Shown here piece after piece: positions 2,388 through 39,039 of a stretch of 43,985 nt of DNA (its first letter is position 1; each line of letters starts with the position of its first letter). Below the pieces are notes generated by a model. The model ran no database searches. It saw only the letters and a program-made list of their open reading frames with translations, and was not told where the DNA came from. The stretch is from a virus. Position numbers and translations under genes: made by a program. Where the stretch lies: positions 1 through 43,985 of IMG/VR virus record IMGVR_UViG_3300043406_000109; one strand, 5' to 3'.

Positions 2388-2875
2388 TGGCCTTTCCACT
2401 GGCAGTTGCTTCCCTCGTCGGCACCGGAGTCGGTACGATCGCGCAGTACCAAGGACAGAAGCGCATGGCCAAAACCACCCGCACCGTGGCGGCCTACAAT
2501 GCGCGCGTGCAGGAAAACGAGGCGATCCAAGCGGACTTGGAGGCACGGGAAGGGATCCGGCGCCAACGCGTGGCGGACCGGGCGTTTGCCGGTGACGTGC
2601 GCACGCGCGTGGCGGCCTCGGGTGTGACCACGGCCGGCTCGCCCTTGGAGGTGATGGTGAACAACGCCACCGCCATGGAACTGAGAATACAGGACGAGGC
2701 CCGCCGCGCGGAGTCGGCCCGCCGGGCCGGCGGCGCCCGTGCTCAGGCCACGCGCTACGAGGGCGCGCAGATCGCGAAGGGCTACGACATTTCCGCCTTC
2801 GGCACCATCATGTCCGGGGCCGCGAAGCTCGCGGGCGCCGGCTACAACTTCTACGACTCGGGCGCTTTTTCCTAA
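2387..2875 (+). CDS. Small internal virion / ejection protein candidate with an N-terminal TM helix (162 aa)
   Basis: ATG 2387 overlaps the upstream TGA (TGATG). Hydrophobic N-terminus 'MAFPLAVASLVGTGVGTIA', helical Arg/Ala-rich body, Gly/Ala hydrophobic C-terminus. Position corresponds to T7 gp14. Confidence 0.55.
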   Translation: MAFPLAVASLVGTGVGTIAQYQGQKRMAKTTRTVAAYNARVQENEAIQADLEAREGIRRQRVADRAFAGDVRTRVAASGVTTAGSPLEVMVNNATAMELRIQDEARRAESARRAGGARAQATRYEGAQIAKGYDISAFGTIMSGAAKLAGAGYNFYDSGAFS

Positions 2876-2876
2876 C

Positions 2877-4238
2877 ATGGCCGATCTCCCCGTTCTTCAA
2901 GCCGGCGCCCCACAGGCCGCCCCGATTGCCGGAACCACGCTCAACGCCGAAGCAGTGGGCGCCCCGGGCCGCGCGTTGGTCGGATTCGGCGACGCCATCC
3001 AATCCGCCGCGGCCGTGGCCGGCGACACGGCGTTGCACATCCAGAACGCCAAGAACGTCGCCGCGACCGCGGACGCCGCGCGCCAAATGGATGAAGCGTT
3101 CGCGCAGTACCAAGTGGAAATGCAGAAGCAGACCGACGAAAGCACGTGGACTGACGACTGGATGCAGCGGGCCGGCAAGCTCCGCGTCGACCTGCTGAAA
3201 AGCGCCGCCGGCCCGGCCGCGAAACGCGCGATCGACGAGGATCTCAAAAACTGGGCGAGCAAGACCACCACACAGGTGCGCGGCCAGCAAAGCGCCCGCA
3301 CCACGCAACGCCAACAGGCGCGCATCGGCATGGCCGCGGAATACATGTTCAAGAATGGCGACTATGAGCGCGGCGCCGCGTTCATCGACTCCGGGGAAAA
3401 GGCCGGGTTGTACTTCCCGGAGGAAGCACAGGCGTTGCGCGACAAGGGCCATGAGATTGTCGACTTCAATCAGGCCAATCGCGCCATCGGCGCGGATCCA
3501 ATCGCGGCCGGCGCCGCGCTGGATGACAAAACCCCGACCGGCCGTTGGCGCAACTTCACGTCGCTGGACGAGAACACCCGGCAGGCCTTGAAGGTCGAAG
3601 CGGAGCGGGCCACGGCGCACGTGCGCGAGGATACGTACCGTTCCGTGATCGACCGCCGGAACGCCGGTACGATCGTACCGCCCGACGAACTGCAACGCTA
3701 CGTCGACCAAAAGTTGCTCACGGCGCCGCAAATGAAATCAATTCTGGCGGAGCAACGCCGTTCCGGGGACGATCCGGAGGTGTACAACGATGCCGCGACA
3801 GCGTTCACGGCCGCGGATCACTACGTGCACAAGGACGATCCCACGAACAAACGGTTCACCGAAATCTTGATGATGGGCGCCGGCCTGCCGCCCACCCTGC
3901 GGGACGAGGTGGAACGCCGGTTGCGCGGCAAGACCGCCAAGACCGGCGAAAACACCGCGTTGAAACTCGCCAACGACTACGTGGAGGGCCAGCATCGCGG
4001 CGGGTTCTACGGCAACGCGTCCGTGATTTCGGGGCGGGCGCTCAACCAAAAAGAGTTTGAGGCGGCCAATCGCCGGCTCGTGGAACTGAAGCAGGAAATT
4101 GCCCGCTTCACCGAAGCGAACCCGACCGCCTCGGCCACGGACGTTTTGACGCACATCCAGACCTTGGACGTCAAGAAGCGCACGGACCCCACGCCAATTG
4201 TGGACGCCATCACGGGCGTGGGATCCGGGGGGTTGTAA
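2877..4238 (+). CDS. Internal virion protein candidate (453 aa, helical)
   Basis: ATG 2877 lies 1 nt after the upstream TAA; the track ORF 2739-4238 extends upstream into the previous gene. Position corresponds to T7 gp15. No catalytic motif seen. Confidence 0.6.
   Translation: MADLPVLQAGAPQAAPIAGTTLNAEAVGAPGRALVGFGDAIQSAAAVAGDTALHIQNAKNVAATADAARQMDEAFAQYQVEMQKQTDESTWTDDWMQRAGKLRVDLLKSAAGPAAKRAIDEDLKNWASKTTTQVRGQQSARTTQRQQARIGMAAEYMFKNGDYERGAAFIDSGEKAGLYFPEEAQALRDKGHEIVDFNQANRAIGADPIAAGAALDDKTPTGRWRNFTSLDENTRQALKVEAERATAHVREDTYRSVIDRRNAGTIVPPDELQRYVDQKLLTAPQMKSILAEQRRSGDDPEVYNDAATAFTAADHYVHKDDPTNKRFTEILMMGAGLPPTLRDEVERRLRGKTAKTGENTALKLANDYVEGQHRGGFYGNASVISGRALNQKEFEAANRRLVELKQEIARFTEANPTASATDVLTHIQTLDVKKRTDPTPIVDAITGVGSGGL
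3667..3678. repeat. Palindrome GTACGATCGTAC, copy 1 (inside CDS 2877-4238; encodes GTIVP)
   Basis: Read directly. The extended form GGTACGATCGTACC spans 3666-3679. Confidence 0.9.
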
Positions 4239-4242
4239 GACC

Positions 4243-7200
4243 ATGCCCAACGCAGTTCCCGCCTCGCCAGCGGCACAGGAACAGCCGCGCGACCCCCTCA
4301 CGGTGTTCGATGGGTTGTTCGCGTCGACCGATAATTGGTCGGGCGTCCTGCCGGCCTCGTCCGTCTCGCGGATCAACGCCCAACTGGCCGGATCCGTGGA
4401 CCCCAAAACGGACCGCATGCGCATGGCGAACCAAGCATGGCTGGCGCACTCGTTCAAGAAACCGGCCGGCGAAGTCGCGGATGGGTACGAGGGTTACAAG
4501 CAGGCATGGGCCAAACAGGTGTTGGGCACGGACAAGCCGATGGACGATGCCACGTTCTACGCTTCAACTGGGCAATGGATGCAGAAGCGAAAGGCGGAAC
4601 GTGTGATGCTCAACGACATGGCCGCCGGAATGTTCGACGGACTGCGCAAGGGCAAGACCTTCGATCAATCGTTTGAAGATCAGCGCCGGGCCAATTGGCT
4701 GTCGAACAAGGGGTGGGAGGCCAAGAATCAGGACCGGTACCGCGAGTTGCTCCGTTCCACGTGGAACAATATAGGGGAAACCCGGAGCCGGCTGGAGCCT
4801 TTGATTGATGAACTCGCGGGGTTTTACCGATACGCCCGTGCGGGCACCAAGCCGGGCGAGGGCGATGCGTTTGTGGCACACCGGGACGCGTTGGTGAAGA
4901 AACTGGGGGGCCTCAACGCCAACGATCGCGAAATGGCCATGGACTTCGCCTCGGGGATGGCGTCGACCGATGCGACTCCGGAAAAAGGTTTTCTGGAAAA
5001 GCTCGGTGGGCGGCTCGCGCGCGGCAGTGACACCCTCGGGTTTGAGGCGATCCAAGGTTTCCACCAACTGACCGCGCCCATGGGCGTGTCGTTCGACGTG
5101 CTCAACGGCGACGTGGAACGCTCCATGATGGCGCGCGTGACGGGCGAAGTGGATCCGCTGAAGGCGAACGGCTGGATTGCCAACGGCCTGTTGGATGCGA
5201 GCGAAAGTTTTCCGCGCATGGCGATTTCGCTCACGCCTCCGGGGATCGCGGTGAACGTGATGGCCTACAAGTCCGAACTCCGGGCGGACTTCCTCGCGCG
5301 CGGCGTCAGCCCGATGGAGGCGCAAGGCCTCTCCGCCGTGGCCGCGCTCCCCTATGCTGCGCTCGACTACGTTTCCGCGAAAATGGTGTTTGGCGGAACC
5401 GTGCCCGGGTTGGATCGCGTGTTGGCGCCGATCAAATCGGCCGCCGGCCTGACGTTCTCCGCGGGCGCGAAACGCGCGGCCGTGATCTTCGGCGTGGAGT
5501 TGGGCGAACAGTATTTGCAGGAGGCGGCACAAGACCTGACGGCGCCCACGGTCCAAGCCATGGCCGGGTTGCTTAACGACAAGATTCCTGCCGTGGACTG
5601 GCGCAAGGAGTTCGCCCGGGTGGGCGCCGCGTCGCCGCAAACGCTGGCCGCCCTGTTGCCGCTCGTGCTGATCGGTACGACCACGGCCACTTTCAAGGAA
5701 AGGGGATACGGGAAAAAGTACGTGCAACAGGTCGCCCATCTGGAGGCCTTGGGGTTCACGCCGGACGCGATTCAGGGGATCACCGCGGCCAAAACCCCCG
5801 ACGAGGCCAACGCGGTGATGGCCCGCGAGTGGAACCGGCGCAAGACCGACACGCCGGTGCAGCAAGCGGCCGTGGAAAAACTCAATCAAGACATGGCCAC
5901 CGCGGCCGATGAAGTGGGCATGCCAGCCGCGGAACCGCCCTCCGTCACGCTCAAGCCACTGCCGGCCGGCGCCACAGTGGAGTTCCAAGGCGCCAAGCAT
6001 GCGATGTTCGAAGGTGTCGGGCCGAAGGTCGACCATTGGTTGGTGAAGCTCCCGGGCGAAACCCGGGGCGAAGTGCTGACGGCCGAAGCACTGGCGAACC
6101 GCGGTTTTGTTCCACCCTCGCGCGTCCCTGATTTCATCAAGAGCATTGGCCAAGCGCAGACGATCGCGGACATGGACGCACTGGGGAAGACGAACGACGC
6201 CGGCCTGTCGGGACTCGCGCACGAAATCGGCCTCGGTGTGACGACTCCCGCGGAAGTGCGCGCGTTGGAAACGGCGGCGAAGGAATTTGCGGACGAGGCC
6301 CGCGCCGTGATGAACGGCCCCGGCTCCATCGAATCCAAGTTCGACCTTGGACAGATGTTGTCGACCAAGGCACAGCTTTTCCGGGAGGCGCACGAGGCCG
6401 CCACGGGCGAAGGATCCGCCGGCCTGCACCTGCGGACGCAAAACGAGAACTTTCGCCCGCCGATCACACGCAACGCGGATGGCACGTTGAGTGTGACGAC
6501 GGAGGATGGCACGGCGCACGTGGCGTCGACGCCCGAGGAAGCGGCGTCGATTCTTCGGGGCGTGAAACCCGGCGCCGCACCGGTCGACCTGTCCACGCCG
6601 GGCGCCTCACTGGACGCACGCGCGGCGGCCACGAACACAATTGCGACCGGCGCACAGGAAACAGACATGCCGGCGGACGCGGAGTTTACCCGCTACGGCT
6701 CGCAACCGAACCGTGCCCGACTCGCACTGACGGCACAGAACAAGGGCGGCGTGTCGGCGCCGCAAGTGATGGCGGCCTTCGGCGACATTGTGAAAGCGTT
6801 CGGCGGCCGTGGCTCACTGATGATCCGGATTGGTCGCATGGGCCGGAAGGCCAAAACCGCGCTCGGTTTCTACCGGCTCCGCGAGCGGATCATTCGCATT
6901 GGCTCCGCGAACAACCTTGAAACGGCCGCGCATGAAGTGGCCCACGCGCTGGACGATGCGGTGTTCGGCATCGGGCACGGTTGGGGCACGAAGGTGGTCC
7001 CCGCGGATGCCCACGCCGAACTGATGCAACTCGGGCGCGACCTGTACGGATCGCGAAATCCCGTGGGTGGGTATGCGTCCGAGGGTTGGGCGGAGTTCGT
7101 CCGCCTGTGGCTGTTGGATCCCGAACAGGCACAGACCAAGGCGCCGCAGTTGTGGGCGCACATGGGCACGCTGTGGGGCAAGATGGATCCGGCCGTGCAA

Positions 7201-9954
7201 CTCGCCGCGGAACGCGCGCAAAAGCTCGGCACGACGTTCTACCGTCAAGGCGCGATGGAGCGGGCGCGACAGTCCATCGCGCAACAGCCCTCGCGGTTCG
7301 CCGTGGTGGCCGAACGGGCGAAAACCGCCCTTGAAACCGTCCGGCGCAAGTGGATTGAGTCCGCCCAACCGATCAAGGATTTCGTCGACGCGGCCGTGGA
7401 AAGTGGCGGACCGATCCCGGACGCGGTGAATCCGTTTTTCACCCTCACCGCGCGCCGGCTCACGGCGGATTCAATTGTCGATTACATGGCCCGCACCGCG
7501 ATGATCGACCACGCCGGCAACGTCACCGGCAAACCTTTGCAGGATGCGTTTGCGATCGTGAAGGACAAGCGGGACGATTTCGTGATCTACCTGTGGGCGA
7601 AACGCGCCCTCGCGCTGTGGGACACGAACCGCAATCCCGGACTGGCCAAGGCGGACGCGGAACAACTCGTGGCCGAACTCGAAACGCCGGCCTTTGAACT
7701 CGCGGCCCAACAGGTGTACGACTGGAACAACGCCGTGCTGGACTACGCGGCACAGGCCGTGCCGGACTTCCGCGAAGTGGTGAAAAAGATCCGCGCCGTG
7801 GATCCCGGGTTCTACATTCCACTGTTCCGCGAGTTCACCGCGCTGGATGATCGTTACGGCGGCGGCGGCGTGGCCGGCGGGAAAAACCTCGTCAAGCGGT
7901 TGAAGGGATCCGGCCGGCGGATCAAGGATCCGGTGGAGTCCATGATCGCACAGGCGAAGGCCATCGTGCTGAAGACCCAGCAAAAAATCGTGCTGGATCA
8001 AATCTTGAAGCTGGCCCAACGCACCGAAGGCATGGGCGCGTGGGTGTCAGAGGTACCGCAAAACCAAGTTCCCGAACGCGTGGCTGGCTGGCAGGTGGCC
8101 AAGCAGGTGAAAAAGTTCCTCGAATCACAGGCCAACACCCCGGAGGCGAAGGCCCTCGCCCAACAGATTGGCGACACCCTGAAGGACGAACTCGACGGCG
8201 CCGCGCTCACGTTTTTTATCCCGGCGCACCAGCCGAAACAGAACGAGGCGCCCATCCTGCCCGTGATGAAGGGCGGCGAGGTGAAGTGGTACGAGATGGA
8301 TCCGGAGCTTTACAAGGCACTGTCCGGAATGGATCTAGCGAAGCTCCCGGCCGCGCTGGATTTGTTCCTCGGGTTGCCGGCGCGCATGGTGCGACTGGGG
8401 ACCACGGGACTGCGCGCCGCGTTCTCTCTCGTCACGAATCCACTGCGCGACTTCCGCACGCTGCAAATGAACAGCACCGCGAGTTCCAACTCCGGGCAGT
8501 TGTTCGGCCTGTGGTTGTCGTCGATGCGGGAAATGGCCGTGGAGGCGATGACGTTCGGCAAGATCCGCTCGCAATGGGCGGACGTGGCGGACCGGCTCGG
8601 CATCGAAATGGCGCAATCGCTCGGACAGGACACGCGGCCGTTGCAGCGGGCCGCCCGCCGGGTGAAACGCGGCGGGGCGTGGGCACCGCTGGACATGGCG
8701 GACAACTTCGATTTGTTGCGCGAGCTTTTGCAATTCCCCGAGACGGCCGCTCGCCTCGCGGAGATCCGGGCCGTGGCGAAAGACCTTGGGTGGGATCCCT
8801 CGCAACGACTCACGCCCGCGATCGCCGCGAAGTTGATCGTGGCCGGTAAACAGGTGACAACGGATTTCACCGCGGCCGGGGAATGGGCACGCCTCTACAA
8901 TCAGGCCGTGCCGTTTTTCAATGCCGGGATCCAAGGCCCGCGCGCCCACGTGCGCGCCTTTCAGCGGGATCCCCACAAGTTCGTTTTGCGCGGCCTGATG
9001 GGCACGGCGCTGGCACTGGCCCTGTGGTGGCGGAACAAGGACGAGCCGTGGTGGCAGGAAATGAGCAGCAAGGAAAAGTACCTGTTCTCGTACATCCCGG
9101 CCGGGGATGAACTGATCCGCCTCCCGCGCTCGTTTGAAGTCGATGGCCTGTTCATGGCGTCGACGGAGGCAATGTTGGATGCGTGGTACCAGAACGATCC
9201 GGCGGCCGTGAAAGATTGGTTCGGCAACTTCGCGTCGAACATCACGCAGATCGACAGTGCCGGCGGCGTCCCGGTCCCGCCGGTACCGGTACTCACCAAG
9301 CTGGCCGCGGAGCAACTGGCGAACCGCGATTTCTTTTTCAACCGGCCGATCGTACCGCGGGGCGAACTGGAAAATGTCCGCCCGGAGGAACAGTACAACG
9401 AGTTCACCACGGCCGCGGCGATCGCGGCCGGCGGCATCCTGAAGATTTCCCCGCGGCGGATCGACCACACCATCCGCAACCTGTTCGGCCCGGTGGGCAT
9501 CGACCTTGTGGGCCTGTTCGGCCACGGCGACGGATCCGCCACGACCACGCGCGAACTGGAGGCCGCGGACACGCCGGTGTTGGGCGTCCTGTTCCAGCGC
9601 GGCGGACAGGTGGCCCGTAACCCCAAGTCCGTGGAGGCCCTGTACGATCGTTATGAGGATGCGCTCAAGATCCAGCGCAGCAAGCGCGAGCAGGAAACGG
9701 ACGAACAGAAACAGGTCCGCCTGATGTTGCAGGACGCGGTTCGCGCACAGACGGCGCTGGCGATGATTCAAAAGCACACGGCCGGACGCGAGGAACGCCG
9801 GCAACTAGCGTTGACGCGCATCGCCGTGGCGCGGAGTGCGGTGAAGATGGCGGACAGTGGCGAGGTGGACCGCGCGCAAAACCTCGAAATCTTGGGCGAG
9901 GCCAGACAGTCGCTCATGGATGAAATGCAGGACAGCGAACCGCCAGCGCCATGA
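4243..9954 (+). CDS. Giant virion-associated (ejection / polyvalent-type) protein, 1903 aa, with a zincin-like HExxH motif
   Basis: ATG 4243 lies 4 nt after the upstream TAA. It is the longest ORF in the window. 'AAHEVAHALDD' (HEVAH codons at 6931-6945) is followed by 'GYASEGWAEF'. It is the last gene of the structural arm, the T7 gp16-like position. Confidence 0.7.
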   Translation: MPNAVPASPAAQEQPRDPLTVFDGLFASTDNWSGVLPASSVSRINAQLAGSVDPKTDRMRMANQAWLAHSFKKPAGEVADGYEGYKQAWAKQVLGTDKPMDDATFYASTGQWMQKRKAERVMLNDMAAGMFDGLRKGKTFDQSFEDQRRANWLSNKGWEAKNQDRYRELLRSTWNNIGETRSRLEPLIDELAGFYRYARAGTKPGEGDAFVAHRDALVKKLGGLNANDREMAMDFASGMASTDATPEKGFLEKLGGRLARGSDTLGFEAIQGFHQLTAPMGVSFDVLNGDVERSMMARVTGEVDPLKANGWIANGLLDASESFPRMAISLTPPGIAVNVMAYKSELRADFLARGVSPMEAQGLSAVAALPYAALDYVSAKMVFGGTVPGLDRVLAPIKSAAGLTFSAGAKRAAVIFGVELGEQYLQEAAQDLTAPTVQAMAGLLNDKIPAVDWRKEFARVGAASPQTLAALLPLVLIGTTTATFKERGYGKKYVQQVAHLEALGFTPDAIQGITAAKTPDEANAVMAREWNRRKTDTPVQQAAVEKLNQDMATAADEVGMPAAEPPSVTLKPLPAGATVEFQGAKHAMFEGVGPKVDHWLVKLPGETRGEVLTAEALANRGFVPPSRVPDFIKSIGQAQTIADMDALGKTNDAGLSGLAHEIGLGVTTPAEVRALETAAKEFADEARAVMNGPGSIESKFDLGQMLSTKAQLFREAHEAATGEGSAGLHLRTQNENFRPPITRNADGTLSVTTEDGTAHVASTPEEAASILRGVKPGAAPVDLSTPGASLDARAAATNTIATGAQETDMPADAEFTRYGSQPNRARLALTAQNKGGVSAPQVMAAFGDIVKAFGGRGSLMIRIGRMGRKAKTALGFYRLRERIIRIGSANNLETAAHEVAHALDDAVFGIGHGWGTKVVPADAHAELMQLGRDLYGSRNPVGGYASEGWAEFVRLWLLDPEQAQTKAPQLWAHMGTLWGKMDPAVQLAAERAQKLGTTFYRQGAMERARQSIAQQPSRFAVVAERAKTALETVRRKWIESAQPIKDFVDAAVESGGPIPDAVNPFFTLTARRLTADSIVDYMARTAMIDHAGNVTGKPLQDAFAIVKDKRDDFVIYLWAKRALALWDTNRNPGLAKADAEQLVAELETPAFELAAQQVYDWNNAVLDYAAQAVPDFREVVKKIRAVDPGFYIPLFREFTALDDRYGGGGVAGGKNLVKRLKGSGRRIKDPVESMIAQAKAIVLKTQQKIVLDQILKLAQRTEGMGAWVSEVPQNQVPERVAGWQVAKQVKKFLESQANTPEAKALAQQIGDTLKDELDGAALTFFIPAHQPKQNEAPILPVMKGGEVKWYEMDPELYKALSGMDLAKLPAALDLFLGLPARMVRLGTTGLRAAFSLVTNPLRDFRTLQMNSTASSNSGQLFGLWLSSMREMAVEAMTFGKIRSQWADVADRLGIEMAQSLGQDTRPLQRAARRVKRGGAWAPLDMADNFDLLRELLQFPETAARLAEIRAVAKDLGWDPSQRLTPAIAAKLIVAGKQVTTDFTAAGEWARLYNQAVPFFNAGIQGPRAHVRAFQRDPHKFVLRGLMGTALALALWWRNKDEPWWQEMSSKEKYLFSYIPAGDELIRLPRSFEVDGLFMASTEAMLDAWYQNDPAAVKDWFGNFASNITQIDSAGGVPVPPVPVLTKLAAEQLANRDFFFNRPIVPRGELENVRPEEQYNEFTTAAAIAAGGILKISPRRIDHTIRNLFGPVGIDLVGLFGHGDGSATTTRELEAADTPVLGVLFQRGGQVARNPKSVEALYDRYEDALKIQRSKREQETDEQKQVRLMLQDAVRAQTALAMIQKHTAGREERRQLALTRIAVARSAVKMADSGEVDRAQNLEILGEARQSLMDEMQDSEPPAP

Positions 9955-10073
9955 GCCCGGCCAGATAGACCGCGACCACGAGCAAGCGCCACCATGTGCG
10001 GCGCACGGCCGCGGAGTCGAACGCGGCGCCAAGACCCAACAGCAACAGGCCGGCAAGGATGTACTCGGGTACC

Positions 10074-10104
10074 AAAACGGCGGCCATCCGTGGACGGCCG
10101 CCGT
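10074..10104 (-). terminator. Rho-independent terminator of the minus arm, in the convergence zone
   Basis: 9-bp GC stem ACGGCGGCC (10077-10085) / GGCCGCCGT (10096-10104) with a 10-nt loop. On the minus strand it is followed by TTTT (complement of 10074-10077). It lies 24 nt downstream of the stop at 10128. Confidence 0.7.
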
Positions 10105-10127: not shown

Positions 10128-10556
10128 CTACTTATAACGGCCCGGCACGTCGATCTTGAGAAATCCGTACTCAACGAACAGCCGGACCGGGATTCCCTGC
10201 GCGCGCAACAGTTCGGCGGCGGCGTTGATGTGCGGTTCGTGCCACGCCTTGGCCTTCGTGGTCCACGCATCGACGGCGGCCCGGTAGGCGGGTTTATCAA
10301 ACACTCCGTTGACACGGAACTGGCGGCTCACGGGGCACCGACCCACGGCCTCCAATCGCGCCTTAGACATTTGCGTGTCGATGTGCACGTGGCCCGGGGT
10401 GAAATCAATCCCACCCTTTGAACTGAAACCCATGTACATTCCCTCCAACGCACGAGCAGGATTGCCCGCGGCCTGAAGGATCCCATTGATACGATCGCAG
10501 ACGGCCCGGCCGTCCACGAGATTACTGATCACTTTGCGTTGTGTTTTGGTGTTCAT
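10128..10556 (-). CDS. Hypothetical protein (142 aa) in a self-contained promoter-gene-terminator cassette
   Basis: ATG 10556, TAG at 10128-10130. Bracketed by a TGnTATAAT element upstream and a hairpin plus T-tract downstream. Contains 'KGGIDFTPGHVHIDT'; no family assigned. Confidence 0.7.
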   Translation of the reverse strand: MNTKTQRKVISNLVDGRAVCDRINGILQAAGNPARALEGMYMGFSSKGGIDFTPGHVHIDTQMSKARLEAVGRCPVSRQFRVNGVFDKPAYRAAVDAWTTKAKAWHEPHINAAAELLRAQGIPVRLFVEYGFLKIDVPGRYK

Positions 10557-10565
10557 ACCGGCGCC

Positions 10566-10574
10566 ATTATATCA
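10566..10574 (-). promoter_or_regulatory. Extended -10 promoter element TGATATAAT (minus strand)
   Basis: Reverse complement of 'attatatca' is TGATATAAT, a perfect TGnTATAAT. It ends 9 nt before ATG 10556, which implies a near-leaderless mRNA. It sits in an AT-richer intergenic gap. Confidence 0.55.
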
Positions 10575-10642
10575 AACGCAAAACGACCACACCGCCGGAT
10601 TCGCCGGACCGCTATATGCAAACCGCTGAATGATAGATCGCG

Positions 10643-10666
10643 AAAAAAAACCCTTGACGGGTTTTT
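10643..10666 (-). terminator. Putative intrinsic terminator directly after the RusA-like gene
   Basis: Minus strand reads TGA-AAAACCC-GTCAA-GGGTTTTTTTT: a short stem with an 8-T tract. The stem is weak (3 GC pairs plus A:T pairs). Confidence 0.45.
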
Positions 10667-11076
10667 CAGTCAAGCGGTTCGATCACGATTTCGCACCCCT
10701 CCTCCGCCCGCGTAGGCACCCTCTTTTCTTCAACCCGCAATTCGATCTCGCCGGCCGTGTCGTCACGTAAGAGTCCAGCGTGGCGGAGGCAGTCGATAAA
10801 GTATTTCGGAGCCACGTTGTCCGGGTCACAGAGGTGTCCGCAACGGTAGCTCGTAACGCGGAGGCGAACACGTCTTGGATACGCTGCTTGAGGCGCTGGC
10901 GGGTGAGCCGGTGCACGCCTAGCAGTTGGTTTAACGACGGGACGCGGTGCGGGATCCACAGGCGGAGCACCTCCGGGGCGTTCGTGTGGGGCGTATCCGT
11001 CAAGTAAATGGGCATTCTTTGCGATCGTGTCTTGCGAGGCATAGGGAAAGAGGGCGAAGAAATCGGCGCGGTTCAT
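10666..11076 (-). CDS. rusA: RusA-like Holliday junction resolvase with a Pro-rich N-terminal extension (136 aa)
   Basis: 'CDPDNVAPKYFIDCLRHAGLLRDDTAGEIEL' aligns with the E. coli RusA core '[25 protein letters not shown]' (D.DN..K..D.L...G...DD). Confidence 0.6.
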   Translation of the reverse strand: MNRADFFALFPYASQDTIAKNAHLLDGYAPHERPGGAPPVDPAPRPVVKPTARRAPAHPPAPQAAYPRRVRLRVTSYRCGHLCDPDNVAPKYFIDCLRHAGLLRDDTAGEIELRVEEKRVPTRAEEGCEIVIEPLD

Positions 11077-11444
11077 GGGAGGATCAGAGTCGAACCGTCA
11101 GTGCAACGCCACACCTGTGCGCCTTCAATCTGGCCGATCAAAGTTTTCCGCACGAGTGGAGGCAAGGCCGGATCCCGCGGCGTGCACGCCAGCACGGCGG
11201 CGGCCTGATCACCATGGACGCGCGCGAAGCTGGCGGAGAAATCAATCACCATGGTTTTGCCCGAACGGCCGCGCACGGTGACGGCCGCGGTGGGCACGTT
11301 GCCCGGCTGGCAATTGGCCATCGGCTTGACCGCGATCACCTCGCCACAGACGCGCGCCCGGCCGGGTACCGGTACGAGCATGCCGGCGGATCCGGGTTCG
11401 ACGTAGAACGAAAGCCACCGGCCCATGAGATCCTCCACGTTCAT
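11073..11444 (-). CDS. Hypothetical protein (123 aa)
   Basis: ATG 11444 overlaps the upstream stop (ATGA). In frame with track ORF 11073-11690. The downstream gene start also overlaps (11073-11076). Confidence 0.6.
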   Translation of the reverse strand: MNVEDLMGRWLSFYVEPGSAGMLVPVPGRARVCGEVIAVKPMANCQPGNVPTAAVTVRGRSGKTMVIDFSASFARVHGDQAAAVLACTPRDPALPPLVRKTLIGQIEGAQVWRCTDGSTLILP

Positions 11445-11761
11445 GCGCGCAACTTCACCGCCAGTTCGGCCAGCCAATGATTGAGGGAATAGAAGCGGGC
11501 GACTTCGACGTGGCGGCACAGCGTGTCCAGCCGGTCCCCGTTTGGCCCGGTGGTTTCGTAGGGGATGGGCTTGAAACCGTTCGCCTTCATGTTGGCCCAA
11601 CAGGTGGTTGCCCACCATCGACACGAGCACTCCCCCACGCCTTGGTTGCTGAGTAGGTCCACGGTGTGGAAAGTGTCGGGCGTGGTCCACGATTCGACGT
11701 GATACCGGAACGGCTCGCCGTCAATCGGGGCGCAACGGACCGTGCCATGATCACGGGGCAT
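11441..11761 (-). CDS. SWIM-type zinc-finger protein (106 aa)
   Basis: 'GECSCRWW...(31 aa)...TLCRHVE' fits the CxCxnCxH SWIM signature. The stop overlaps the next start. Confidence 0.55.
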   Translation of the reverse strand: MPRDHGTVRCAPIDGEPFRYHVESWTTPDTFHTVDLLSNQGVGECSCRWWATTCWANMKANGFKPIPYETTGPNGDRLDTLCRHVEVARFYSLNHWLAELAVKLRA

Positions 11762-12138
11762 CAGGCCAAACGCTCCAGCGCCAACAGTTCGTCCAGTCGC
11801 GCCACGGTTTCCTCGCGGGTGAGTTCAAGTTTCAAGTACTTGAAGGCGTAGAACCCGGCCACATAGGGTTTGTACCAATCCGAGTGTTCCAGCACGAACA
11901 CCACGTGGGGATCAACGGTAGCTTGGAAGCGGAGGTGGCACCGCTGGCACAGGGCGAGCAAGTTCCACCACGCGCAGTTCGATTTGTTCCCGTCGGCATG
12001 GTGCACCGTGAGCACGTGCCCAGACTTGAGATCGTTCGCGTGATTGCACCGGATGCAACGCCACCCGGCCGCGGCCTTGACGTCCTGTGCGATCGCTCGC
12101 CAGTGCGGTGGGTACTCCCCGGAAATCGTGAGGCGCAT
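11761..12138 (-). CDS. HNH endonuclease (125 aa)
   Basis: ATG 12138 shares 1 nt with the primase-helicase stop (TGATG). 'CIRCNH..(12 aa)..LTVHHADGNKSNCAWWNLLALCQRCHL' is a classic HNH/zinc-finger core. Confidence 0.8.
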   Translation of the reverse strand: MRLTISGEYPPHWRAIAQDVKAAAGWRCIRCNHANDLKSGHVLTVHHADGNKSNCAWWNLLALCQRCHLRFQATVDPHVVFVLEHSDWYKPYVAGFYAFKYLKLELTREETVARLDELLALERLA

Positions 12139-13988: not shown

Positions 13989-13991
13989 GGT

Positions 13992-14279: not shown

Positions 14280-14502
14280 ATTTTCGGGCGCGTTCGCGAA
14301 CCATGCCGGACAGCGTGCCACGGATCTTGCGGAGGTGTCCGGGTGGTCCGCCGTGGTAGGTCAGGCGAATCGAACACGCATCAGTCAACCCCGACATGGT
14401 GTACGAGAGTTGGATTGGCGAAGTTTCCTTGCCGTGGACCCAGACGGGATCCGAGTCGCTTCCGTGGGCTTCAAGCCGGCGGATGGCGTCCGCCACACTC
14501 AT
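14254..14502 (-). CDS. Hypothetical protein (82 aa)
   Basis: ATG 14502 ('MSVADAIRRLEAHG...') lies 11 nt after the upstream stop. The track start at 14541 would overlap the glycosyltransferase-like gene. Confidence 0.5.
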   Translation of the reverse strand: MSVADAIRRLEAHGSDSDPVWVHGKETSPIQLSYTMSGLTDACSIRLTYHGGPPGHLRKIRGTLSGMVRERARKYERRTCTR

Positions 14503-14513: not shown

Positions 14514-15269
14514 TCACGGTACGAATCCGAGGTGTTTCCATTTTTGTTCCCCGTGGAGGTGGGCGATGAAAACGCCCGGGTGCACCGGCCCGAGGTGTTC
14601 CGGCGTCCAGTTGAAAGTTTGCGGGAGATCAATCCCCCCGAGTTTGTGCCACGCGAGCGACCACCCTTTTTGCTCCGCGAACTCGTCGCCCGGGTTGATG
14701 TAATCGGCTTCGCGCATGCCGGTGGCGTACGATCGCAACAGGGCGTTGCGCCGGAACGCCTCCACGGCCGGGAACCACAGGACGCCGGCACAGCGCATGC
14801 GCATGGCGTCCGCGGATGGCACCTTGAACAATCGCGGGTCCACGTCCTGCACCATGCCCACCACGCGCGGTTCGCCGTTCTCATTCCGGAATCGGTGCGT
14901 GATCGCGCGCAATTCTTCCGTCGGGTCACGCTTCAAGAATGCGTCCGTGTCGACCACCAGCAAATCGTCCGACAGGATCCGGAGGGCGGCGGCGATCAGT
15001 GCCCCCTTGCGATCGAACGCGCGGCCGTTGATGTGAGGCCACGCCACCGATGCGGCCGGCGTGGTCTTGCGGTAAGTGAACCGGGCGCGGAGATCCACAT
15101 GGAGGAAGTCCACGCCCGGGGGAATGCGCACCGTGCCGTCCGTCAGCAGCAACACGTGGGCGCCGGTGTCCGCCGCGTGCACGTGGTCCAACCACGCGCC
15201 CAACAGCTTGGGCCAGCGTTCCGCGTGGCGGCCGTGTTCGGGTCCGAAAAACGGTGCGGCAATGATCAC
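14514..15269 (-). CDS. DXD-motif glycosyltransferase-like protein, paralogue B (251 aa, GTG start)
   Basis: GTG 15269 overlaps the upstream TGA (GTGA). 'RAFDRKGALIAAALRILSDDLLVVDTDAFLKRDPT' and 'IAHLHGEQKWKHLG' are paralogous to 24648-25442. A hydrophobic strand followed by DxD suggests a GT-A fold. Confidence 0.6.
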   Translation of the reverse strand: MIIAAPFFGPEHGRHAERWPKLLGAWLDHVHAADTGAHVLLLTDGTVRIPPGVDFLHVDLRARFTYRKTTPAASVAWPHINGRAFDRKGALIAAALRILSDDLLVVDTDAFLKRDPTEELRAITHRFRNENGEPRVVGMVQDVDPRLFKVPSADAMRMRCAGVLWFPAVEAFRRNALLRSYATGMREADYINPGDEFAEQKGWSLAWHKLGGIDLPQTFNWTPEHLGPVHPGVFIAHLHGEQKWKHLGFVP

Positions 15270-19651: not shown

Positions 19652-19802
19652 TGAGGGGACACGAGGGCGCCCGGCCTTCCGTGCGCAGTTCTTCGATCAC
19701 CGCGGGATCCGGCGGCCGGTACTCGGGTACGATCGTACCGGCGGCCCGCATCCGGGCCTGTTGCATCGCCAGTTCGCACATCGCGCGGCCGTAGCTGTTC
19801 AC
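19623..19802 (-). CDS. Small hypothetical protein (59 aa, GTG start); contains the 20-mer GTAC repeat
   Basis: GTG 19802 overlaps the upstream TGA (GTGA). Translation '...RMRAAGTIVPEYRPPDPAVIEEL...'. Confidence 0.45.
   Translation of the reverse strand: MNSYGRAMCELAMQQARMRAAGTIVPEYRPPDPAVIEELRTEGRAPSCPLSELPNPHDD
19719..19738. repeat. 20-mer GTACTCGGGTACGATCGTAC, copy 1 (includes palindrome copy 2; inside a minus-strand CDS)
   Basis: Identical to 39020-39039. Flanked by the 9-bp direct repeat CCGGCGGCC (19709-19717 and 19738-19746). Confidence 0.9.
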
Positions 19803-26764: not shown

Positions 26765-26974
26765 GTGCCCAACCCGCCACAGGAACCCCCGATCGCGAGC
26801 ACGGCGCCGAACTTCACGACGCGCGACGATCGTACGCCGGTGCACCAACAGGTGTTGGAGTCGACGTCACTGCCGGCCACGAAACCGCGTGCCCTTGGTG
26901 ATCGCGAGGCGCCCGAGGTGACGGATCTTGTCGGGCCAAGCGTGCCCACCGATTGGTTCGGCGTCCCGCTGTGA
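26765..26974 (+). CDS. Hypothetical protein (69 aa, GTG start), low complexity
   Basis: Track ORF; GTG lies 3 nt after the upstream TGA. Weak support only. Confidence 0.3.
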   Translation: MPNPPQEPPIASTAPNFTTRDDRTPVHQQVLESTSLPATKPRALGDREAPEVTDLVGPSVPTDWFGVPL

Positions 26975-31663: not shown

Positions 31664-32353
31664 ATGCGCAACCCCGTTGCCGTTCTCTGTCCCGGCCCGC
31701 GCTCACTGTCGAAGGTGTGGTGTGACGATCTTTTCGACTGTTACGCCCTCGTGGTCGCGGTGAATACCGCGGGATGGTTGTTCCGGTGCCATTGGCTGGC
31801 CGGGGTGGACGATCACGTGATCCGCCCCGTGATGGGCGGAACCAAACGCCGGCCGTTGCGCGGGATCCTGTCGAACACGGGATGGCGCACCGAGATTGTG
31901 CACCGCCGGTTCGGGTGGGAGTGCTTGGGCCGGTTCTACGAAATGGGCGAGAACGAGCGGTGGGCGGCCGTGGTCGAAAAGGATGACGGAAAAAAGGTGG
32001 GCGTGTTCCGGTTCACCTTCCCCAACGCACTGGCGTGGGCCTTGGCCCACTCGCCGGCCTCCGTCGACGTGTTCGGCGTCGACTGGAGTTTCGACCGGCT
32101 GGACGCGGCCGGCGATGATCGCGGGGACCACAAGGAACTGCGTTGGATGCAAGAGGCCGAGGAATTGCGCCGGCTGATCCGCGATCTTGCCCCGCACCAA
32201 CGCGACGGCCTGCGGATCCACGGCGAAGCGCCCGCGGCCGTGCGCGATTACATCATGGGGCGCCGGGACACGTGGGAGCACGTCAACCCGGTGGCGGCGG
32301 CCGAGCGCGAGCAACGCGCGCGTGGCCGGCTCCGCCTGCGTCTGCCCGTATGA
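31664..32353 (+). CDS. Hypothetical Rossmann-like protein (229 aa), possibly DUF115/MptE-like
   Basis: ATG 31664; the track start at 31640 lies inside the terminator stem. 'VAVLCPGPRSL', 'VVAVNTAG' and 'VDVFGVDWS' loosely recall nucleotide-binding transferase-like folds. Weak call. Confidence 0.5.
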   Translation: MRNPVAVLCPGPRSLSKVWCDDLFDCYALVVAVNTAGWLFRCHWLAGVDDHVIRPVMGGTKRRPLRGILSNTGWRTEIVHRRFGWECLGRFYEMGENERWAAVVEKDDGKKVGVFRFTFPNALAWALAHSPASVDVFGVDWSFDRLDAAGDDRGDHKELRWMQEAEELRRLIRDLAPHQRDGLRIHGEAPAAVRDYIMGRRDTWEHVNPVAAAEREQRARGRLRLRLPV

Positions 32354-34644: not shown

Positions 34645-36336
34645 ATGCCCGCGGATCCCAAGGCCATCCGACTGTTGGCCAGATACGACCGGCTCAAGGC
34701 GCAACGGACTGCGTTTTGGGACGTGCTGTGGCAGGCGATCGCGAATTACATGCTGCCGCGGAAGTCCGAAATCACCACGGACAAATCGCCGGGGGTGGAG
34801 GCGTACACCCTCGGGCTGTTCGACACCACGGCGATGGAGGCCAATCAGGTGTTGGCCGCCGGCATCGCCACCAACACCATGCCATCGACCGAACGGTGGT
34901 TCGCCTACGAGGCGCCCACGTCCGTGAAAAACCAGTGGGGCGATCTTGGCGCCGCGGCGGCGTGGTATCAGGATTCCTCGGACGTCATTGCGCGCCTGCT
35001 GGCCTCGTCAAATTTCTACCAGCAAACCCACGAGGTGCTGTTGGAGCGCAGTCCGTTCGGCACGGGCAACCTGTACTCGGAACCGGGCCGGGAAAACGCG
35101 TTCAATTTCAAGGCGATCCCGATTGGATCGTTCGTTTTCACGGAAGACGATCAGGGGAAACCCACGACGTGCATCCGCGCGTGGAAGTGGACCGTGGCAC
35201 AGGCCGCGGCGAAATGGGGCGAGGACAAACTTCCGCCCAAGTTGCGCTCGCAATACTCCAGTGGCCAAGCCAAGGACTTGGATTGCGAATACGAGTTCAT
35301 CCATGGCGTTTTCCCGCGTGAACACGCCGAACGCCAGCCGGGCGCCGAAAACCCCGCCAACAAGCCGTTCGCATCCCTGTGGGTGTGCCGCGAGGAAAGC
35401 CACCTGATCGACGAGGGCGGGTACGACGAGAATCCGTACGCGATCTCTCGTTTCCTATGCTGGCCGGGCGAGGTGTGGGGTTGGGGTCCGGGCATCGTGG
35501 CCCTTCCGACGACGCGGCAGGTGAATCACATCGAACGCCAGATGGACGCGCTCGCCGAAGTGAAGGCGTTTCCGCGCACGCTGATCCCGTCGAACCTCAA
35601 GGGCGCCGTGGATCTCCGCCCGGCCGGCGTCACGACGTGGGACGTGAACGTGCCGCAGGGAAAACCTGAGACATGGGCGGATCAAGGTGAGTACGACGTC
35701 GGCGAAGTGCGCACGCAGCGCAAGCAACAGGCGATCCGCAAGGCGTTTTTCAACGACCTGTTCGCCATGTTGCAGGGCATCGAACCCGGGAAGGCCACGT
35801 GGGGCGAAATCCAACTGCGCGTGCAGGAAAAGCTGGAGTTGTTCAATCCCACCTTCAACTCGTGGACCAACGAGTGTCTGTCCCCGACGTTGATCCGCTG
35901 TTTTTGGATGGCGTTCCGCCAAGGACTGTTACCGGACCCGCCGCCCGAGGTGATGATTGTCACGGGTAGCGAAGTTTCCGTGGCCGGGCCGGCGGTGTCG
36001 TACACCTCCAACATGGCGCTGGCGTTGAAACGCCTTCAGAACCGGTCGACCATCGACACGATGCAAACGCTCGCCCCGCTGGCGGAACTCCGTCCGGACA
36101 TTCTGGACGTGTTCAATCTCGACACCGTGGCCATCCGGATCGCGCGCAACAACGGCATGGCGCCGGGCGACATTCGCGAACCGGAGGAAGTGGCCGCGAT
36201 TCGCGAGCAACGCGCGCAGCAACAGGCCGCCGCGGAAAACATCGCCGCCGCTCAGGGTGTGGCCAAGGCCGGCGCCGATGCCGCCAAGGCCACGCCGGAA
36301 ATGCGCCGGCAGATGCAGGACGCAATCAACGTCTGA
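34645..36336 (+). CDS. Portal (T7-like head-to-tail connector) protein (563 aa)
   Basis: The size, the N-terminus 'RYDRLKAQRTAFWDVLWQAIANYMLPRKSE' and 'FDTTAMEANQVLAAGI' match my recollection of the podovirus Head-tail_con family. Position is after terL. Confidence 0.85.
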   Translation: MPADPKAIRLLARYDRLKAQRTAFWDVLWQAIANYMLPRKSEITTDKSPGVEAYTLGLFDTTAMEANQVLAAGIATNTMPSTERWFAYEAPTSVKNQWGDLGAAAAWYQDSSDVIARLLASSNFYQQTHEVLLERSPFGTGNLYSEPGRENAFNFKAIPIGSFVFTEDDQGKPTTCIRAWKWTVAQAAAKWGEDKLPPKLRSQYSSGQAKDLDCEYEFIHGVFPREHAERQPGAENPANKPFASLWVCREESHLIDEGGYDENPYAISRFLCWPGEVWGWGPGIVALPTTRQVNHIERQMDALAEVKAFPRTLIPSNLKGAVDLRPAGVTTWDVNVPQGKPETWADQGEYDVGEVRTQRKQQAIRKAFFNDLFAMLQGIEPGKATWGEIQLRVQEKLELFNPTFNSWTNECLSPTLIRCFWMAFRQGLLPDPPPEVMIVTGSEVSVAGPAVSYTSNMALALKRLQNRSTIDTMQTLAPLAELRPDILDVFNLDTVAIRIARNNGMAPGDIREPEEVAAIREQRAQQQAAAENIAAAQGVAKAGADAAKATPEMRRQMQDAINV

Positions 36337-38962: not shown

Positions 38963-38978
38963 GCGTTTCGATGGTTTC

Positions 38979-39011
38979 CCCCGGGGGTGTTGGCCGCCCC
39001 CGGGGTTTTTT
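38979..39011 (+). terminator. Strong rho-independent terminator
   Basis: 9-bp all-GC stem CCCCGGGGG (38979-38987) / CCCCCGGGG (38997-39005), 9-nt loop, then TTTTTT (39006-39011). Confidence 0.8.
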
Positions 39012-39019
39012 CTTGTGCC

Positions 39020-39039
39020 GTACTCGGGTACGATCGTAC
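39020..39039. repeat. 20-mer GTACTCGGGTACGATCGTAC, copy 2 (includes palindrome copy 3; intergenic, upstream of the capsid gene)
   Basis: Identical to 19719-19738. Starts 9 nt after the T tract of the 38979-39011 terminator. Confidence 0.9.

What the first reader, a model, noticed from the sequence alone, without database searches (positions are those of the whole stretch)
2433..39039. Iterated palindrome GTACGATCGTAC (three full copies plus five half-sites), far above chance and spanning coding and non-coding DNA
Seen in sequence: the 12-bp perfect palindrome GTACGATCGTAC occurs at 3667-3678, 19727-19738 and 39028-39039. Half-sites GTACGATCG / CGATCGTAC also occur at 2433-2441, 9347-9355, 9642-9650, 14727-14735 and 26827-26835.
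A zero-order estimate for this 9-mer on both strands of 44 kb at about 62% GC is about 0.3 occurrences. I count 11 half-site hits.
Two full copies lie in unrelated genes on opposite strands, and both are read as G-T-I-V-P. They use GTA, a Val codon that looks rare in this GC-rich genome, which argues for selection on the DNA rather than on the peptide. The third copy is intergenic.
The pattern is reminiscent of highly iterated palindromes such as cyanobacterial HIP1 (GCGATCGC). It could be a protein-binding or methylation/restriction-related site, or a recombination or packaging signal.
Basis: seen in the sequence. Interest (0 to 1): 0.68.

Follow-up and report, generated by a model that had tools for sequence, protein, structure and literature searches.

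The report
Dispersed palindromic DNA word in phage
A 44-kb uncultured podovirus genome carries nine copies of a short two-fold-symmetric DNA word, kept at the DNA level and not by protein coding; it is most likely a protein-binding site whose strongest copy lies at the start of the capsid transcription unit, but its function is unproven.

Summary
GTACGATCGTAC occurs three times and GTACGATCG eleven times counting both strands (8 loci). Markov models expect about 1 hit, and synonymous-codon resampling expects about 0.5 coding hits against 9 seen.

- Two copies (19719-19738, 39020-39039) share a 20-mer, GTACTCGGGTACGATCGTAC.
- Its left half, GTACTCGGGTAC, has a third copy at 10061.
- 3659-3678 is a degenerate copy of the 20-mer.

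The word is read in all three frames. In g3 and g4 it coincides with amino-acid replacements relative to homologues, so the constraint acts on the DNA.

The window is a complete circular genome distantly related to HTVC010P-type Pelagibacter podoviruses. The intergenic copy lies 9 nt after a strong terminator. It occupies the position where relatives have the -10/transcription-start region of the capsid operon plus short palindromes of their own.

Best reading (about 0.35): recognition sites for a dimeric DNA-binding protein, like other dispersed dyad repeats in phages. No binding protein or methyltransferase was found, and there are no close relatives or known host.

It is too sparse to be HIP1-like. 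However, the genome shows strong selection on palindromes in general: GATC and GGATCC are enriched and many hexamers are absent.

The parts
39020..39039 (+). Composite 20-mer GTACTCGGGTACGATCGTAC (three GTAC cores spaced 8 bp apart), intergenic. It starts 9 nt after the terminator T-run and ends 147 nt before the capsid ATG.
   Evidence: It aligns to the -10/TSS/5' leader region of relatives.
19719..19738 (+). Second exact copy of the 20-mer, in the same orientation, inside the weak minus-strand ORF g20 (read as G-T-I-V-P-E-Y). It lies 68-87 nt upstream of the g19 start.
3659..3678 (+). Degenerate composite GAACGCCGGTACGATCGTAC (3 mismatches to the 20-mer). It contains the full 12-mer at 3667-3678, embedded in the 16-bp palindrome CGGTACGATCGTACCG (3665-3680), in g4.
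   Evidence: The homologues have AG-R-I-Y where the window has AG-T-I-V-P.
10061..10072 (+). Third copy of the left 12-mer GTACTCGGGTAC without the GATCGTAC extension. It lies at the convergent junction of the late (+) and replication (-) gene blocks, inside a possible 57-aa membrane ORF (9914-10087, minus strand).
2433..2441 (+). 9-mer GTACGATCG in g3 (G-T-I), 46 nt after the start codon.
   Evidence: Homologues have G-(S/T)-Y-Q where the window has G-T-I-A.
9347..9355 (-). 9-mer in g5, the large polyvalent virion protein; read as P-I-V-P.
9642..9650 (+). 9-mer in g5, read in a different frame (Y-D-R).
14727..14735 (+). 9-mer in the minus-strand gene g12, read in the third frame (R-S-Y).
26827..26835 (-). 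9-mer in the small ORF g32 (D-D-R-T), 62 nt after its start.
38979..39011 (+). Intrinsic terminator (11-pair G+C stem plus T6) ending the scaffold-side transcription unit, immediately before the 20-mer.
   Evidence: The same layout is seen in relatives.
39040..39185 (+). Capsid 5' leader. Its fold is more stable than shuffled versions.
   Evidence: z = -2.9.
39186..40097 (+). Major capsid protein gene (g51).
   Evidence: Pfam Phage_capsid_2; 42-44% identity to HTVC010P-type capsids.

Best explanation
The words are recognition sites for one sequence-specific, two-fold-symmetric (dimeric or multimeric) DNA-binding protein, encoded by the phage or its host.

The full site is three GTAC cores phased 8 bp apart (GTACTCGG-GTACGATC-GTAC). 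There are two perfect composite sites, one degenerate composite, one left half, and five GTACGATCG partial sites that would bind weakly.

The strongest intergenic site overlaps the place where the capsid operon is started in related phages. There the protein would switch late transcription on or off. The second perfect site lies in the head of the leftward replication operon, where binding could block or autoregulate it. The intragenic partial sites would be auxiliary, roadblock or looping sites, as in other phages with dispersed operator-like repeats.

Shown: non-random occurrence, DNA-level constraint, and position relative to the terminator and to the relatives' promoter. Inferred: protein binding, the identity of the binder, and the regulatory outcome.
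For: 1. The excess survives all nulls.
2. Two copies share 20 nt. The halves recur separately at 3667 and 10061, against expectations of 0.005 and 0.0035. This graded family of perfect, partial and half sites is typical of operators.
3. The word is read in three frames on both strands with rare codons: GGT is 10% of Gly codons and GTA is 2.6% of Val codons.
4. In g4 and g3 the word is made by replacements at positions where homologues keep other residues, R-I-Y and (S/T)-Y-Q.
5. Site 39020 follows a strong terminator directly.
6. Relatives with 70-79% identical capsids have the same terminator there, followed by TTGACA-N16/17-CA(A/G)(A/T)TT, then a short palindrome of their own, then the conserved GATTAGATACCGG that aligns to the window's GATCGTACACCGG. 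The palindromes are TGCCTAGGCA in L016 and TAGGCAaattcTGCCTA in L015, with a further TTGCCTA copy near the portal gene.
7. The window has no sigma-70-like promoter at that place, so a factor-dependent start is plausible.
8. Precedents exist. Cluster O mycobacteriophages have a 17-bp dyad repeat in more than 30 copies, intergenic and intragenic (PMC4351075). Cluster A phages have stoperators (PMC9283540).
Against: - No DNA-binding protein was identified. Pfam and PHROGs scans of 43 of about 60 predicted proteins (mainly the non-structural and small ones) gave no repressor, RHH, HTH or ParB hit. The neighbouring g19 has no relatives at all and its structure model is uninformative (pLDDT 43).
- Seven or eight of nine loci are in coding DNA, about what random placement gives in a genome that is 91% coding. 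A classical operator family would instead be concentrated between genes.
- Half-site orientation shows no relation to transcription direction (3 sense, 2 antisense).
- No relative carries the word, so conservation could not be tested.
- The 8-bp phasing puts successive GTAC cores on different faces of the helix. That fits only some protein families, such as MetJ-like ribbon-helix-helix proteins; this last point comes from my own knowledge and was not tested.
Confidence: 0.35

Rival explanations
1. A methylation- or restriction-linked iterated palindrome, HIP-like. The word concatenates three 4-bp palindromes that are typical methyltransferase or restriction targets (GTAC, GATC, GTAC, with a CGATCG core). 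It would be created and kept by methylation-directed repair bias, or by selection linked to a host or phage modification system.
For: - Palindromes in this genome are clearly under DNA-level selection. GATC is 397 against 276-279 expected (z about 11), enriched in all three codon phases. GGATCC is 76 against 26 (z about 14). GAATTC, AGCGCT, CAGCTG, CTGCAG, GAGCTC, GCTAGC and ATCGAT are absent.
- The closest relatives have zero GTAC in 20 kb, so GTAC is a restriction target in this clade.
Against: - GTAC (125 against 122) and CGATCG (39 against 36) are individually neutral. The excess begins only at ACGATCGT and longer.
- A 6-bp-specific enzyme does not explain a 12- to 20-nt word or the asymmetric 8-nt extension.
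- Density is about 100 times lower than HIP1.
- No methyltransferase was found in the phage proteins scanned.
- Restriction pressure normally depletes a word.
Confidence: 0.18
2. No function. A chance palindrome was multiplied by short templated copying (template switching or short-patch conversion at palindromes). The 9-mers are the tail of a genome rich in GATC words.
For: - Some 12-nt palindrome with three or more copies arises in 2% of codon-shuffled genomes.
- CGCGAGCAACGCGCG also occurs three times at P about 3e-8 with no obvious role.
- Tandem (GTACGATC)n arrays exist in unrelated metagenome contigs, so the unit is prone to slippage.
- Placement is indifferent to coding status.
Against: - Joint improbability: the 20-mer pair is about 0.02 genome-wide; extra copies of both halves multiply to about 2e-5; five extra 9-mers against 0.5-0.8 expected give about 1e-3.
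- Copying cannot place the word in three different frames without frameshifts.
- It needed non-conservative amino-acid replacements in g3 and g4.
Confidence: 0.15
3. A host-type signature word (REP-like, uptake-signal-like or host-factor site) that the phage shares with its host genome.
For: In a capped scan of 185,579 species genomes for GGTACGATCGTACC, 8 of 120 rows came from one MAG (Betaproteobacteria SAR238) and 4 from another (s10_2). There the word is the core of an intergenic 22-26-bp palindrome, AAAAT(C/G)GGTACGATCGTACC(G/C)ATTTT, within a longer repeated element.
Against: - Those MAGs do not look like the host. Tetranucleotide correlation is 0.39-0.41, the same as for other high-GC genomes.
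- Palindrome profile correlation is only 0.32-0.33. They are rich in AGCGCT, CTGCAG and GAGCTC, which the phage avoids completely, and are not enriched in GGATCC.
- The phage copies lack the A/T flanks and are intragenic.
- With this many genomes, one repeat family sharing a given 14-mer is not surprising. The host is unknown.
Confidence: 0.1
4. A transcription-start or RNA element. TACGAT inside the word would act as a -10 hexamer (TANNNT type), or the palindrome would form a 5' stem-loop that replaces the leader hairpin of relatives. The other copies would be internal or antisense starts or processing sites.
For: - The 39028 copy aligns with the relatives' transcription-start region, whose GATT(A/C)G...C(U/G)AGUC hairpin shows compensatory changes.
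- A perfect palindrome gives the same RNA whichever strand is transcribed.
Against: - No shared -35 or other upstream element exists among the 11 oriented sites.
- The scan found no sigma-70-type match at that position.
- RNA folds around the sites are no more stable than shuffled sequence: z is -0.2 at 39012-39090 and 3640-3700, and +0.15 at 10040-10095.
- The half-sites lie in both orientations relative to the mRNA.
Confidence: 0.1

Closest known systems
Cluster O mycobacteriophage 17-bp dyad repeat, TGTTCGGNNNCCGAACA (PMC4351075)
   Same: - An invariant short inverted repeat dispersed through one phage genome.
- Lies on both sides of gene boundaries, including inside ORFs.
- No orientation rule.
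- Function unknown but presumed to be protein binding.
   Different: - Cluster O has more than 30 copies, mostly intergenic or near gene 5' ends, conserved in all five cluster members.
- Here there are only 3-4 full and 5 partial sites with no spacer, an asymmetric 8-nt extension, a different host type and phage morphotype, and no relative carries it.
Stoperators of Cluster A mycobacteriophages (PMC9283540, PMC6550527)
   Same: One repressor recognises many 13-14-bp sites spread over the genome, including coding DNA, in addition to the true operator at a promoter.
   Different: - Stoperators are asymmetric, bound by a monomer, oriented with transcription, and number 20-35 copies in temperate phages with an identified repressor.
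- The present word is a perfect palindrome, and neither a repressor nor an integrase was found.
HIP1 (GCGATCGC) and alternate highly iterated palindromes of cyanobacteria
   Same: - A palindrome with a GATC/CGATCG core.
- Found in coding DNA in all frames.
- Excess not explained by codon usage.
   Different: - HIP1 occurs about once per kb genome-wide, with cognate orphan methyltransferases.
- Here there is one full site per 15 kb, a 12-20-nt word, CGATCG not enriched, and no methyltransferase seen.
- HIP1 itself is only 8 copies here and 0-2 in the relatives.
Dispersed palindromic centromere/operator sites of ParB-type proteins (KorB OB sites of RK2, sopC-like sites of prophage N15); from my own knowledge, not checked here
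   Same: Perfect 13-16-bp palindromes, a handful to a dozen per replicon, some in promoters and some inside genes.
   Different: These need a ParB/KorB/SopB protein and usually a partner ATPase. None was detected, and the genome looks like a lytic podovirus and not a plasmid prophage.

Membership tests
HIP1-type highly iterated palindrome | Palindrome with an internal GATC/CGATCG methylation core. | tested here: met
   GTA-CGATCG-TAC.
HIP1-type highly iterated palindrome | Very high genome-wide density (about one per kb). | tested here: not met
   3 full and 5 partial sites in 43.9 kb.
HIP1-type highly iterated palindrome | Cognate orphan methyltransferases present. | tested here: inconclusive
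   None among the phage proteins scanned with Pfam or PHROGs. The host is unknown.
HIP1-type highly iterated palindrome | The same excess in the host chromosome. | not testable with these tools
   Host not identified. The two MAGs with iterated copies do not match the phage's composition.
Stoperator system (Cluster A type) | Asymmetric site oriented with the direction of transcription. | tested here: not met
   Perfect palindrome; half-sites are 3 sense and 2 antisense.
Stoperator system (Cluster A type) | Encoded immunity repressor and a temperate lifestyle. | tested here: not met
   No repressor or integrase hit.
Cluster O-type dispersed dyad repeat | Invariant inverted-repeat arms, many copies across the genome, intergenic and intragenic. 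| tested here: inconclusive
   Dyad symmetry and dispersion are met. Copy number (9 loci) is far below the more than 30 in Cluster O.
Cluster O-type dispersed dyad repeat | Conserved in related genomes. | tested here: not met
   Absent from all capsid relatives fetched and from IMG/VR as a multi-copy word. The nearest relative has only 79% capsid identity.
ParB/KorB-type centromere-operator sites | Cognate ParB-fold protein, with or without a ParA ATPase, on the same replicon. | tested here: not met
   No ParBc or ParA hit. The only P-loop proteins are the primase-helicase and an SMC/SbcC-like ATPase.
Sigma-70 promoter family | -35 and -10 hexamers at 16-18 nt spacing, shared by the copies. 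| tested here: not met
   No match at 39006-39045. No conserved upstream positions among the 11 oriented sites.
Restriction-site avoidance | Depletion of the word relative to expectation. | tested here: not met
   The word is enriched. Real avoidance is seen for other hexamers.

The most novel reading that the evidence does not exclude
The word is a genome-wide, orientation-free mark selected purely at the DNA level in a lytic podovirus, strongly enough to force amino-acid replacements. It could be a loading or condensation site, a self mark read by a phage or host system, or a decoy for a host defence. It would then be part of a wider and so far undescribed habit of this phage clade of both purging and hoarding specific palindromes (GATC, GGATCC and CTCGAG enriched several-fold; GTAC and many hexamers removed).
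Probability: 0.12. Interest if true: 0.7.

Novelty: new member of a known kind. Interest (0 to 1): 0.4.

Why it matters
Dispersed short dyad repeats are known in a few phage groups, and mostly their function is still unknown. This is a clean, statistically solid example in a very different and uncultured lineage, a high-GC relative of HTVC010P-type podoviruses.

One copy sits exactly at the capsid-operon start, where each relative has its own palindrome. That makes the late-gene switch of this abundant environmental phage group experimentally approachable: a 20-nt bait is available for pull-down or DAP-seq.

The wider palindrome landscape (GATC and GGATCC hoarding, complete loss of several hexamers, zero GTAC in relatives) may say more about phage-host conflict than the word itself.

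Tried and rejected
- **Peptide explanation.** Rejected. Three frames are used, codons are rare, and resampling gives 0.5 against 9.
- **GTA-CCN codon-pair bias.** NNA before Pro is generally favoured about 2-fold. Outside the motif and the GTACCGGTAC sites, GTA-CCN is 6 against about 3, so this is not the cause.
- **GTACCGGTAC x3.** Explained as (Val-Pro)2 or (Gly-Thr)2 hexamer repeats, probably unrelated to the family.
- **Assembly artefact.** Rejected. ORFs stay intact and an independent Logan contig is identical.
- **Close relatives for a conservation test.** None found. There was no megablast hit. The best capsid is 79% identical, with different GC and no motif. The replication-module ATPase is at most 43% identical and sits in other phage types.
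- **Collection scans for the 20-mer.** Absent from the viral, genome and metagenome collections.
- **Host identification via the 14-mer.** Two MAGs have iterated copies, but their composition and palindrome profiles do not match the phage.
- **Cyanobacterial host or HIP1.** Relatives have 0-2 HIP1 copies.
- **Rfam.** No match in the window or in the MAG loci.
- **RNA structure at the sites.** Not unusual.
- **Candidate binder g19.** It has no relatives at all, and its AlphaFold model has pLDDT 43.
- **Literature.** The 12-mer appears in no relevant paper.
- **Metagenome scan for GTAC-N4-GTACGATCGTAC.** Only chance hits and tandem (GTACGATC)n arrays.
- **The 2433 / 23488 near-repeat** (21 of 24 nt). 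Within chance expectation by my own estimate, about 4 such pairs expected.
- **L013 'repeat' GGGCGCCGGAAGAC.** A by-product of a duplicated gene N-terminus.

Full report
**What the window is.** The first and last 127 nt are identical, and one gene runs across the junction. The window is therefore a complete, circularly assembled genome of 43,858 bp with 64.5% G+C.

My own gene call gives about 60 genes (extended by eye):
- A rightward block runs from 23680 through the junction to 9954. It holds small early genes, tail-fibre-like genes, terminase, portal (Head-tail_con in relatives), scaffold-like genes, capsid, tail tube-like proteins and a 1883-aa polyvalent protein.
- A leftward block at 10128-22754 holds a Toprim/DnaB-like primase-helicase, an SMC/SbcC-like ATPase, an HNH protein and many ORFs with no relatives.

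The capsid is 42-44% identical to those of Pelagibacter podoviruses of the HTVC010P type. It belongs to a large uncultured family of 40-43-kb contigs whose nearest member is 79% identical. There is no nucleotide-level relative in INPHARED. No integrase, repressor or methyltransferase was found among the 43 proteins scanned with Pfam and/or PHROGs.

**The observation.** The expected number of 9-mer hits on both strands is:
- 0.30 at zero order;
- 0.27-1.5 for Markov orders 1-5;
- 0.19 in dinucleotide shuffles.

Shuffling synonymous codons within genes gives a mean of 3.5, of which 2 are the untouched intergenic copy. The rest is partly an artefact, because very small genes keep their few rare codons in place. 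The maximum in 1500 shuffles was 8.

Resampling synonymous codons from genome-wide usage gives about 0.5 coding hits against 9 observed, and about 0.0005 coding 12-mers against 2 observed. Neither count was reached in 2000 trials.

One caution applies. A triple of some 12-nt palindrome turns up in 2% of shuffled genomes. An unrelated 15-mer, CGCGAGCAACGCGCG, also occurs three times. The triple alone would not be convincing.

- The copies at 19727 and 39028 are preceded by the same eight bases, giving an exact 20-mer GTACTCGGGTACGATCGTAC on the same strand.
- Its left 12-mer, GTACTCGGGTAC, has a third copy at 10061.
- The copy at 3667 is preceded by GAACGCCG, a degenerate version of the 20-mer, and lies in a 16-bp palindrome.

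The full element is three GTAC cores phased 8 bp apart. Adjacent GTAC pairs at 8-bp spacing occur 6 times against about 0.4 expected.

Taking the 20-mer pair as a seed (about 0.02 genome-wide), three further observations stack up. Extra copies of each half have expectations of 0.005 and 0.0035. Five further 9-mers compare with 0.5-0.8 expected. Chance is therefore untenable.

GTACCGGTAC (three copies) is best explained by tandem Val-Pro or Gly-Thr codon pairs, and I leave it out of the family.

**DNA and not peptide.** The sites are read as:
- G-T-I-V-P (twice), G-T-I and P-I-V-P in one frame;
- Y-D-R and D-D-R-T in the second frame;
- R-S-Y in the third frame.

They lie on both strands. GGT is 10% of Gly codons and GTA is 2.6% of Val codons.

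Aligning g4 and g3 with their homologues in two relatives shows that the word coincides with replacements. AG-R-I-Y in the relatives is AG-T-I-V-P here. G-(S/T)-Y-Q is G-T-I-A here. With only 27-42% overall identity this is suggestive and not proof.

**Position.** The intergenic copy starts 9 nt after the T-run of a strong intrinsic terminator (38979-39005) and lies 147 nt before the capsid start.

Three relatives (L013, L015, L016) have the same arrangement:
- a terminator;
- then TTGAC(A/T), 16-17 nt, CA(A/G)(A/T)TT;
- a short palindrome or repeat specific to each phage that overlaps this promoter;
- then, 6-9 nt after the -10 element, a conserved GATT(A/C)GATACCGG. This forms a leader hairpin with compensatory changes.

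The window's GATCGTACACCGG aligns with that conserved element. Its GTACTCGG takes the place of the -10 region. No sigma-70-like promoter is detectable there.

In L016 the phage-specific word TTGCCTA recurs at a second locus near the portal gene.

The second perfect 20-mer is in the weak ORF g20, near the head of the leftward operon. The left 12-mer at 10061 lies where the two gene blocks converge. The remaining sites are scattered in g3, g4, g5, g12 and g32 with no orientation rule. Overall, the share of sites in coding DNA is what random placement would give.

**Wider palindrome landscape.** Against synonymous shuffles:
- GATC is 397 against 279 (z = 11), enriched in each codon phase.
- GGATCC is 76 against 26 (z = 14).
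- GTCGAC, CCGG and CGGCCG are also high.
- GAATTC, AGCGCT, CAGCTG, CTGCAG, GAGCTC and ATCGAT are absent. GCTAGC is also absent against a zero-order expectation of 15, and GGGCCC is nearly absent.

Relatives are even more extreme. L013 and L015 have no GTAC in 20.9 kb each. L009 has neither GTAC nor ACGT. L013 has CTCGAG at 49 copies against 6 expected.

GTAC and CGATCG are neutral in the window. The studied word is therefore not simply the tail of the GATC excess, although the two phenomena may be related.

**Search for host and relatives.** The 20-mer is absent from IMG/VR, from 185,579 species genomes and from the JGI metagenome set. The 14-bp palindrome GGTACGATCGTACC occurs once in each of 44 IMG/VR contigs and never twice.

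In the genome collection (capped at 120 rows), 8 rows come from one MAG (Betaproteobacteria SAR238) and 4 from another (s10_2). In those MAGs the word is the core of an intergenic 22-26-bp palindrome with A/T flanks, inside a longer repeat.

These MAGs are related to each other but do not resemble the phage. Tetranucleotide correlation is about 0.4, as for any high-GC genome. Palindrome profile correlation is 0.32-0.33, and the hexamers the phage lacks are abundant in them. I treat this as a coincidence or at most a lead. The second refutation condition (equal enrichment in the host) remains untested.

**Other tests.**
- RNA folds around the sites are ordinary, with z about -0.2 to +0.15 on the coding-strand RNA.
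- Rfam finds nothing.
- g19, just downstream of site 19719, looked by eye like a ribbon-helix-helix protein. It has no relatives at all and its model is unreliable.
- No paper reports the word.

**Verdict.** This is a real, DNA-level, two-fold-symmetric repeat family of nine loci. The best-supported reading is a set of binding sites for one symmetric DNA-binding protein. The main site would be at the capsid-operon start and a second in the head of the replication operon. This is comparable in kind to the Cluster O 17-bp dyad repeats and, more loosely, to stoperators.

I put this at about 0.35. The rivals are:
- methylation- or restriction-linked selection, 0.18;
- non-functional copying, 0.15;
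- host signature, 0.10;
- promoter or RNA element, 0.10.

It is not a member of the HIP1, stoperator or ParB-site families on the features that could be tested.

Noticed in passing
window 1-127 and 43859-43985: Exact 127-nt terminal overlap, and one gene (g56/g1) continues across it. This is a complete circular or circularly permuted genome of 43,858 bp.
   Followed up: yes
whole window: GATC (397 against about 278 expected from synonymous resampling, in all three codon phases) and GGATCC (76 against 26) are strongly enriched at the DNA level. GTCGAC, CCGG and CGGCCG are also high. This enrichment is more pervasive than the reported word.
   Followed up: partly
whole window: Complete absence of GAATTC, AGCGCT, CAGCTG, CTGCAG, GAGCTC, GCTAGC and ATCGAT, near absence of GGGCCC and TTCGAA, and AGCT at half its expectation. 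This is a classic restriction-avoidance signature.
   Followed up: partly
L013, L015, L009, L002, L003 (capsid relatives): Zero GTAC in up to 20.9 kb, plus zero ACGT in L009. Other hexamer palindromes are 5-8-fold enriched (CTCGAG, TCCGGA and GGATCC in L013). Each relative has its own purge-and-hoard palindrome profile.
   Followed up: partly
L009 2932, 4164, 6672, 8832, 9804, 9944 (+) and 6104 (-): The motif (TT)TTGACTGATACC(A) is repeated 7 times in 21 kb, mostly 3-35 nt upstream of start codons. It looks like a start-associated or promoter-like repeat in a distant relative.
   Followed up: partly
L040, L052, L062, L063, L090, L097, L102, L106 (MAG SAR238); L039, L056, L101, L123 (s10_2): An intergenic repeated element whose core is the palindrome AAAAT(C/G)GGTACGATCGTACC(G/C)ATTTT, often preceded by CTGGAA(A/C)AGGGGCG-like sequence. 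It resembles a REP or bidirectional terminator and has no Rfam match.
   Followed up: partly
window 25272-25286, 32306-32320, 36202-36216: CGCGAGCAACGCGCG occurs three times, always on the plus strand and always read as R-E-Q-R-A with identical codons, in three unrelated genes (g28, g41, portal). Markov expectation is about 0.005.
   Followed up: partly
window 41341-41547 and 41547-41760: The small gene g54 is a duplicate of the N-terminus of the 734-aa g55 that follows it (72-76% nucleotide identity over about 130 nt). The same arrangement is seen in relatives.
   Followed up: partly
window 14514-15269 (-) and 24666-25442 (+): g12 and g28 are paralogues (30% identity, E = 8e-14). They share a VVDTD/IVDTD motif and have no Pfam or PHROG family. 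They are possibly nucleotide-sugar transferases, one in each gene block.
   Followed up: partly
window 39040-39185; L013 9883-10000, L015 9875-10000, L016 8900-9008: The capsid 5' leader is unusually stable in the window (z = -2.9). In the relatives the leader begins with a conserved hairpin, GATT(A/C)G...C(U/G)AGUC, that shows compensatory changes.
   Followed up: partly
window about 19800-21500: A segment with lower G+C and lower third-position G+C (about 0.64 in its two small ORFs). It has no GTAC, no GGATCC and few GATC, and may be a recent acquisition.
   Followed up: no
window, gene starts: Most genes lack a Shine-Dalgarno sequence and have C/A-rich upstream regions. A minority (g14, g17, g26, g27, g44) have GGAGG. 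g6 is preceded by a perfect extended -10 element (TGATATAAT).
   Followed up: no
L185, L189, L227, L241, L270, L292, L293 (metagenome contigs): Tandem arrays of the octamer GTACGATC occur in unrelated environmental contigs.
   Followed up: no
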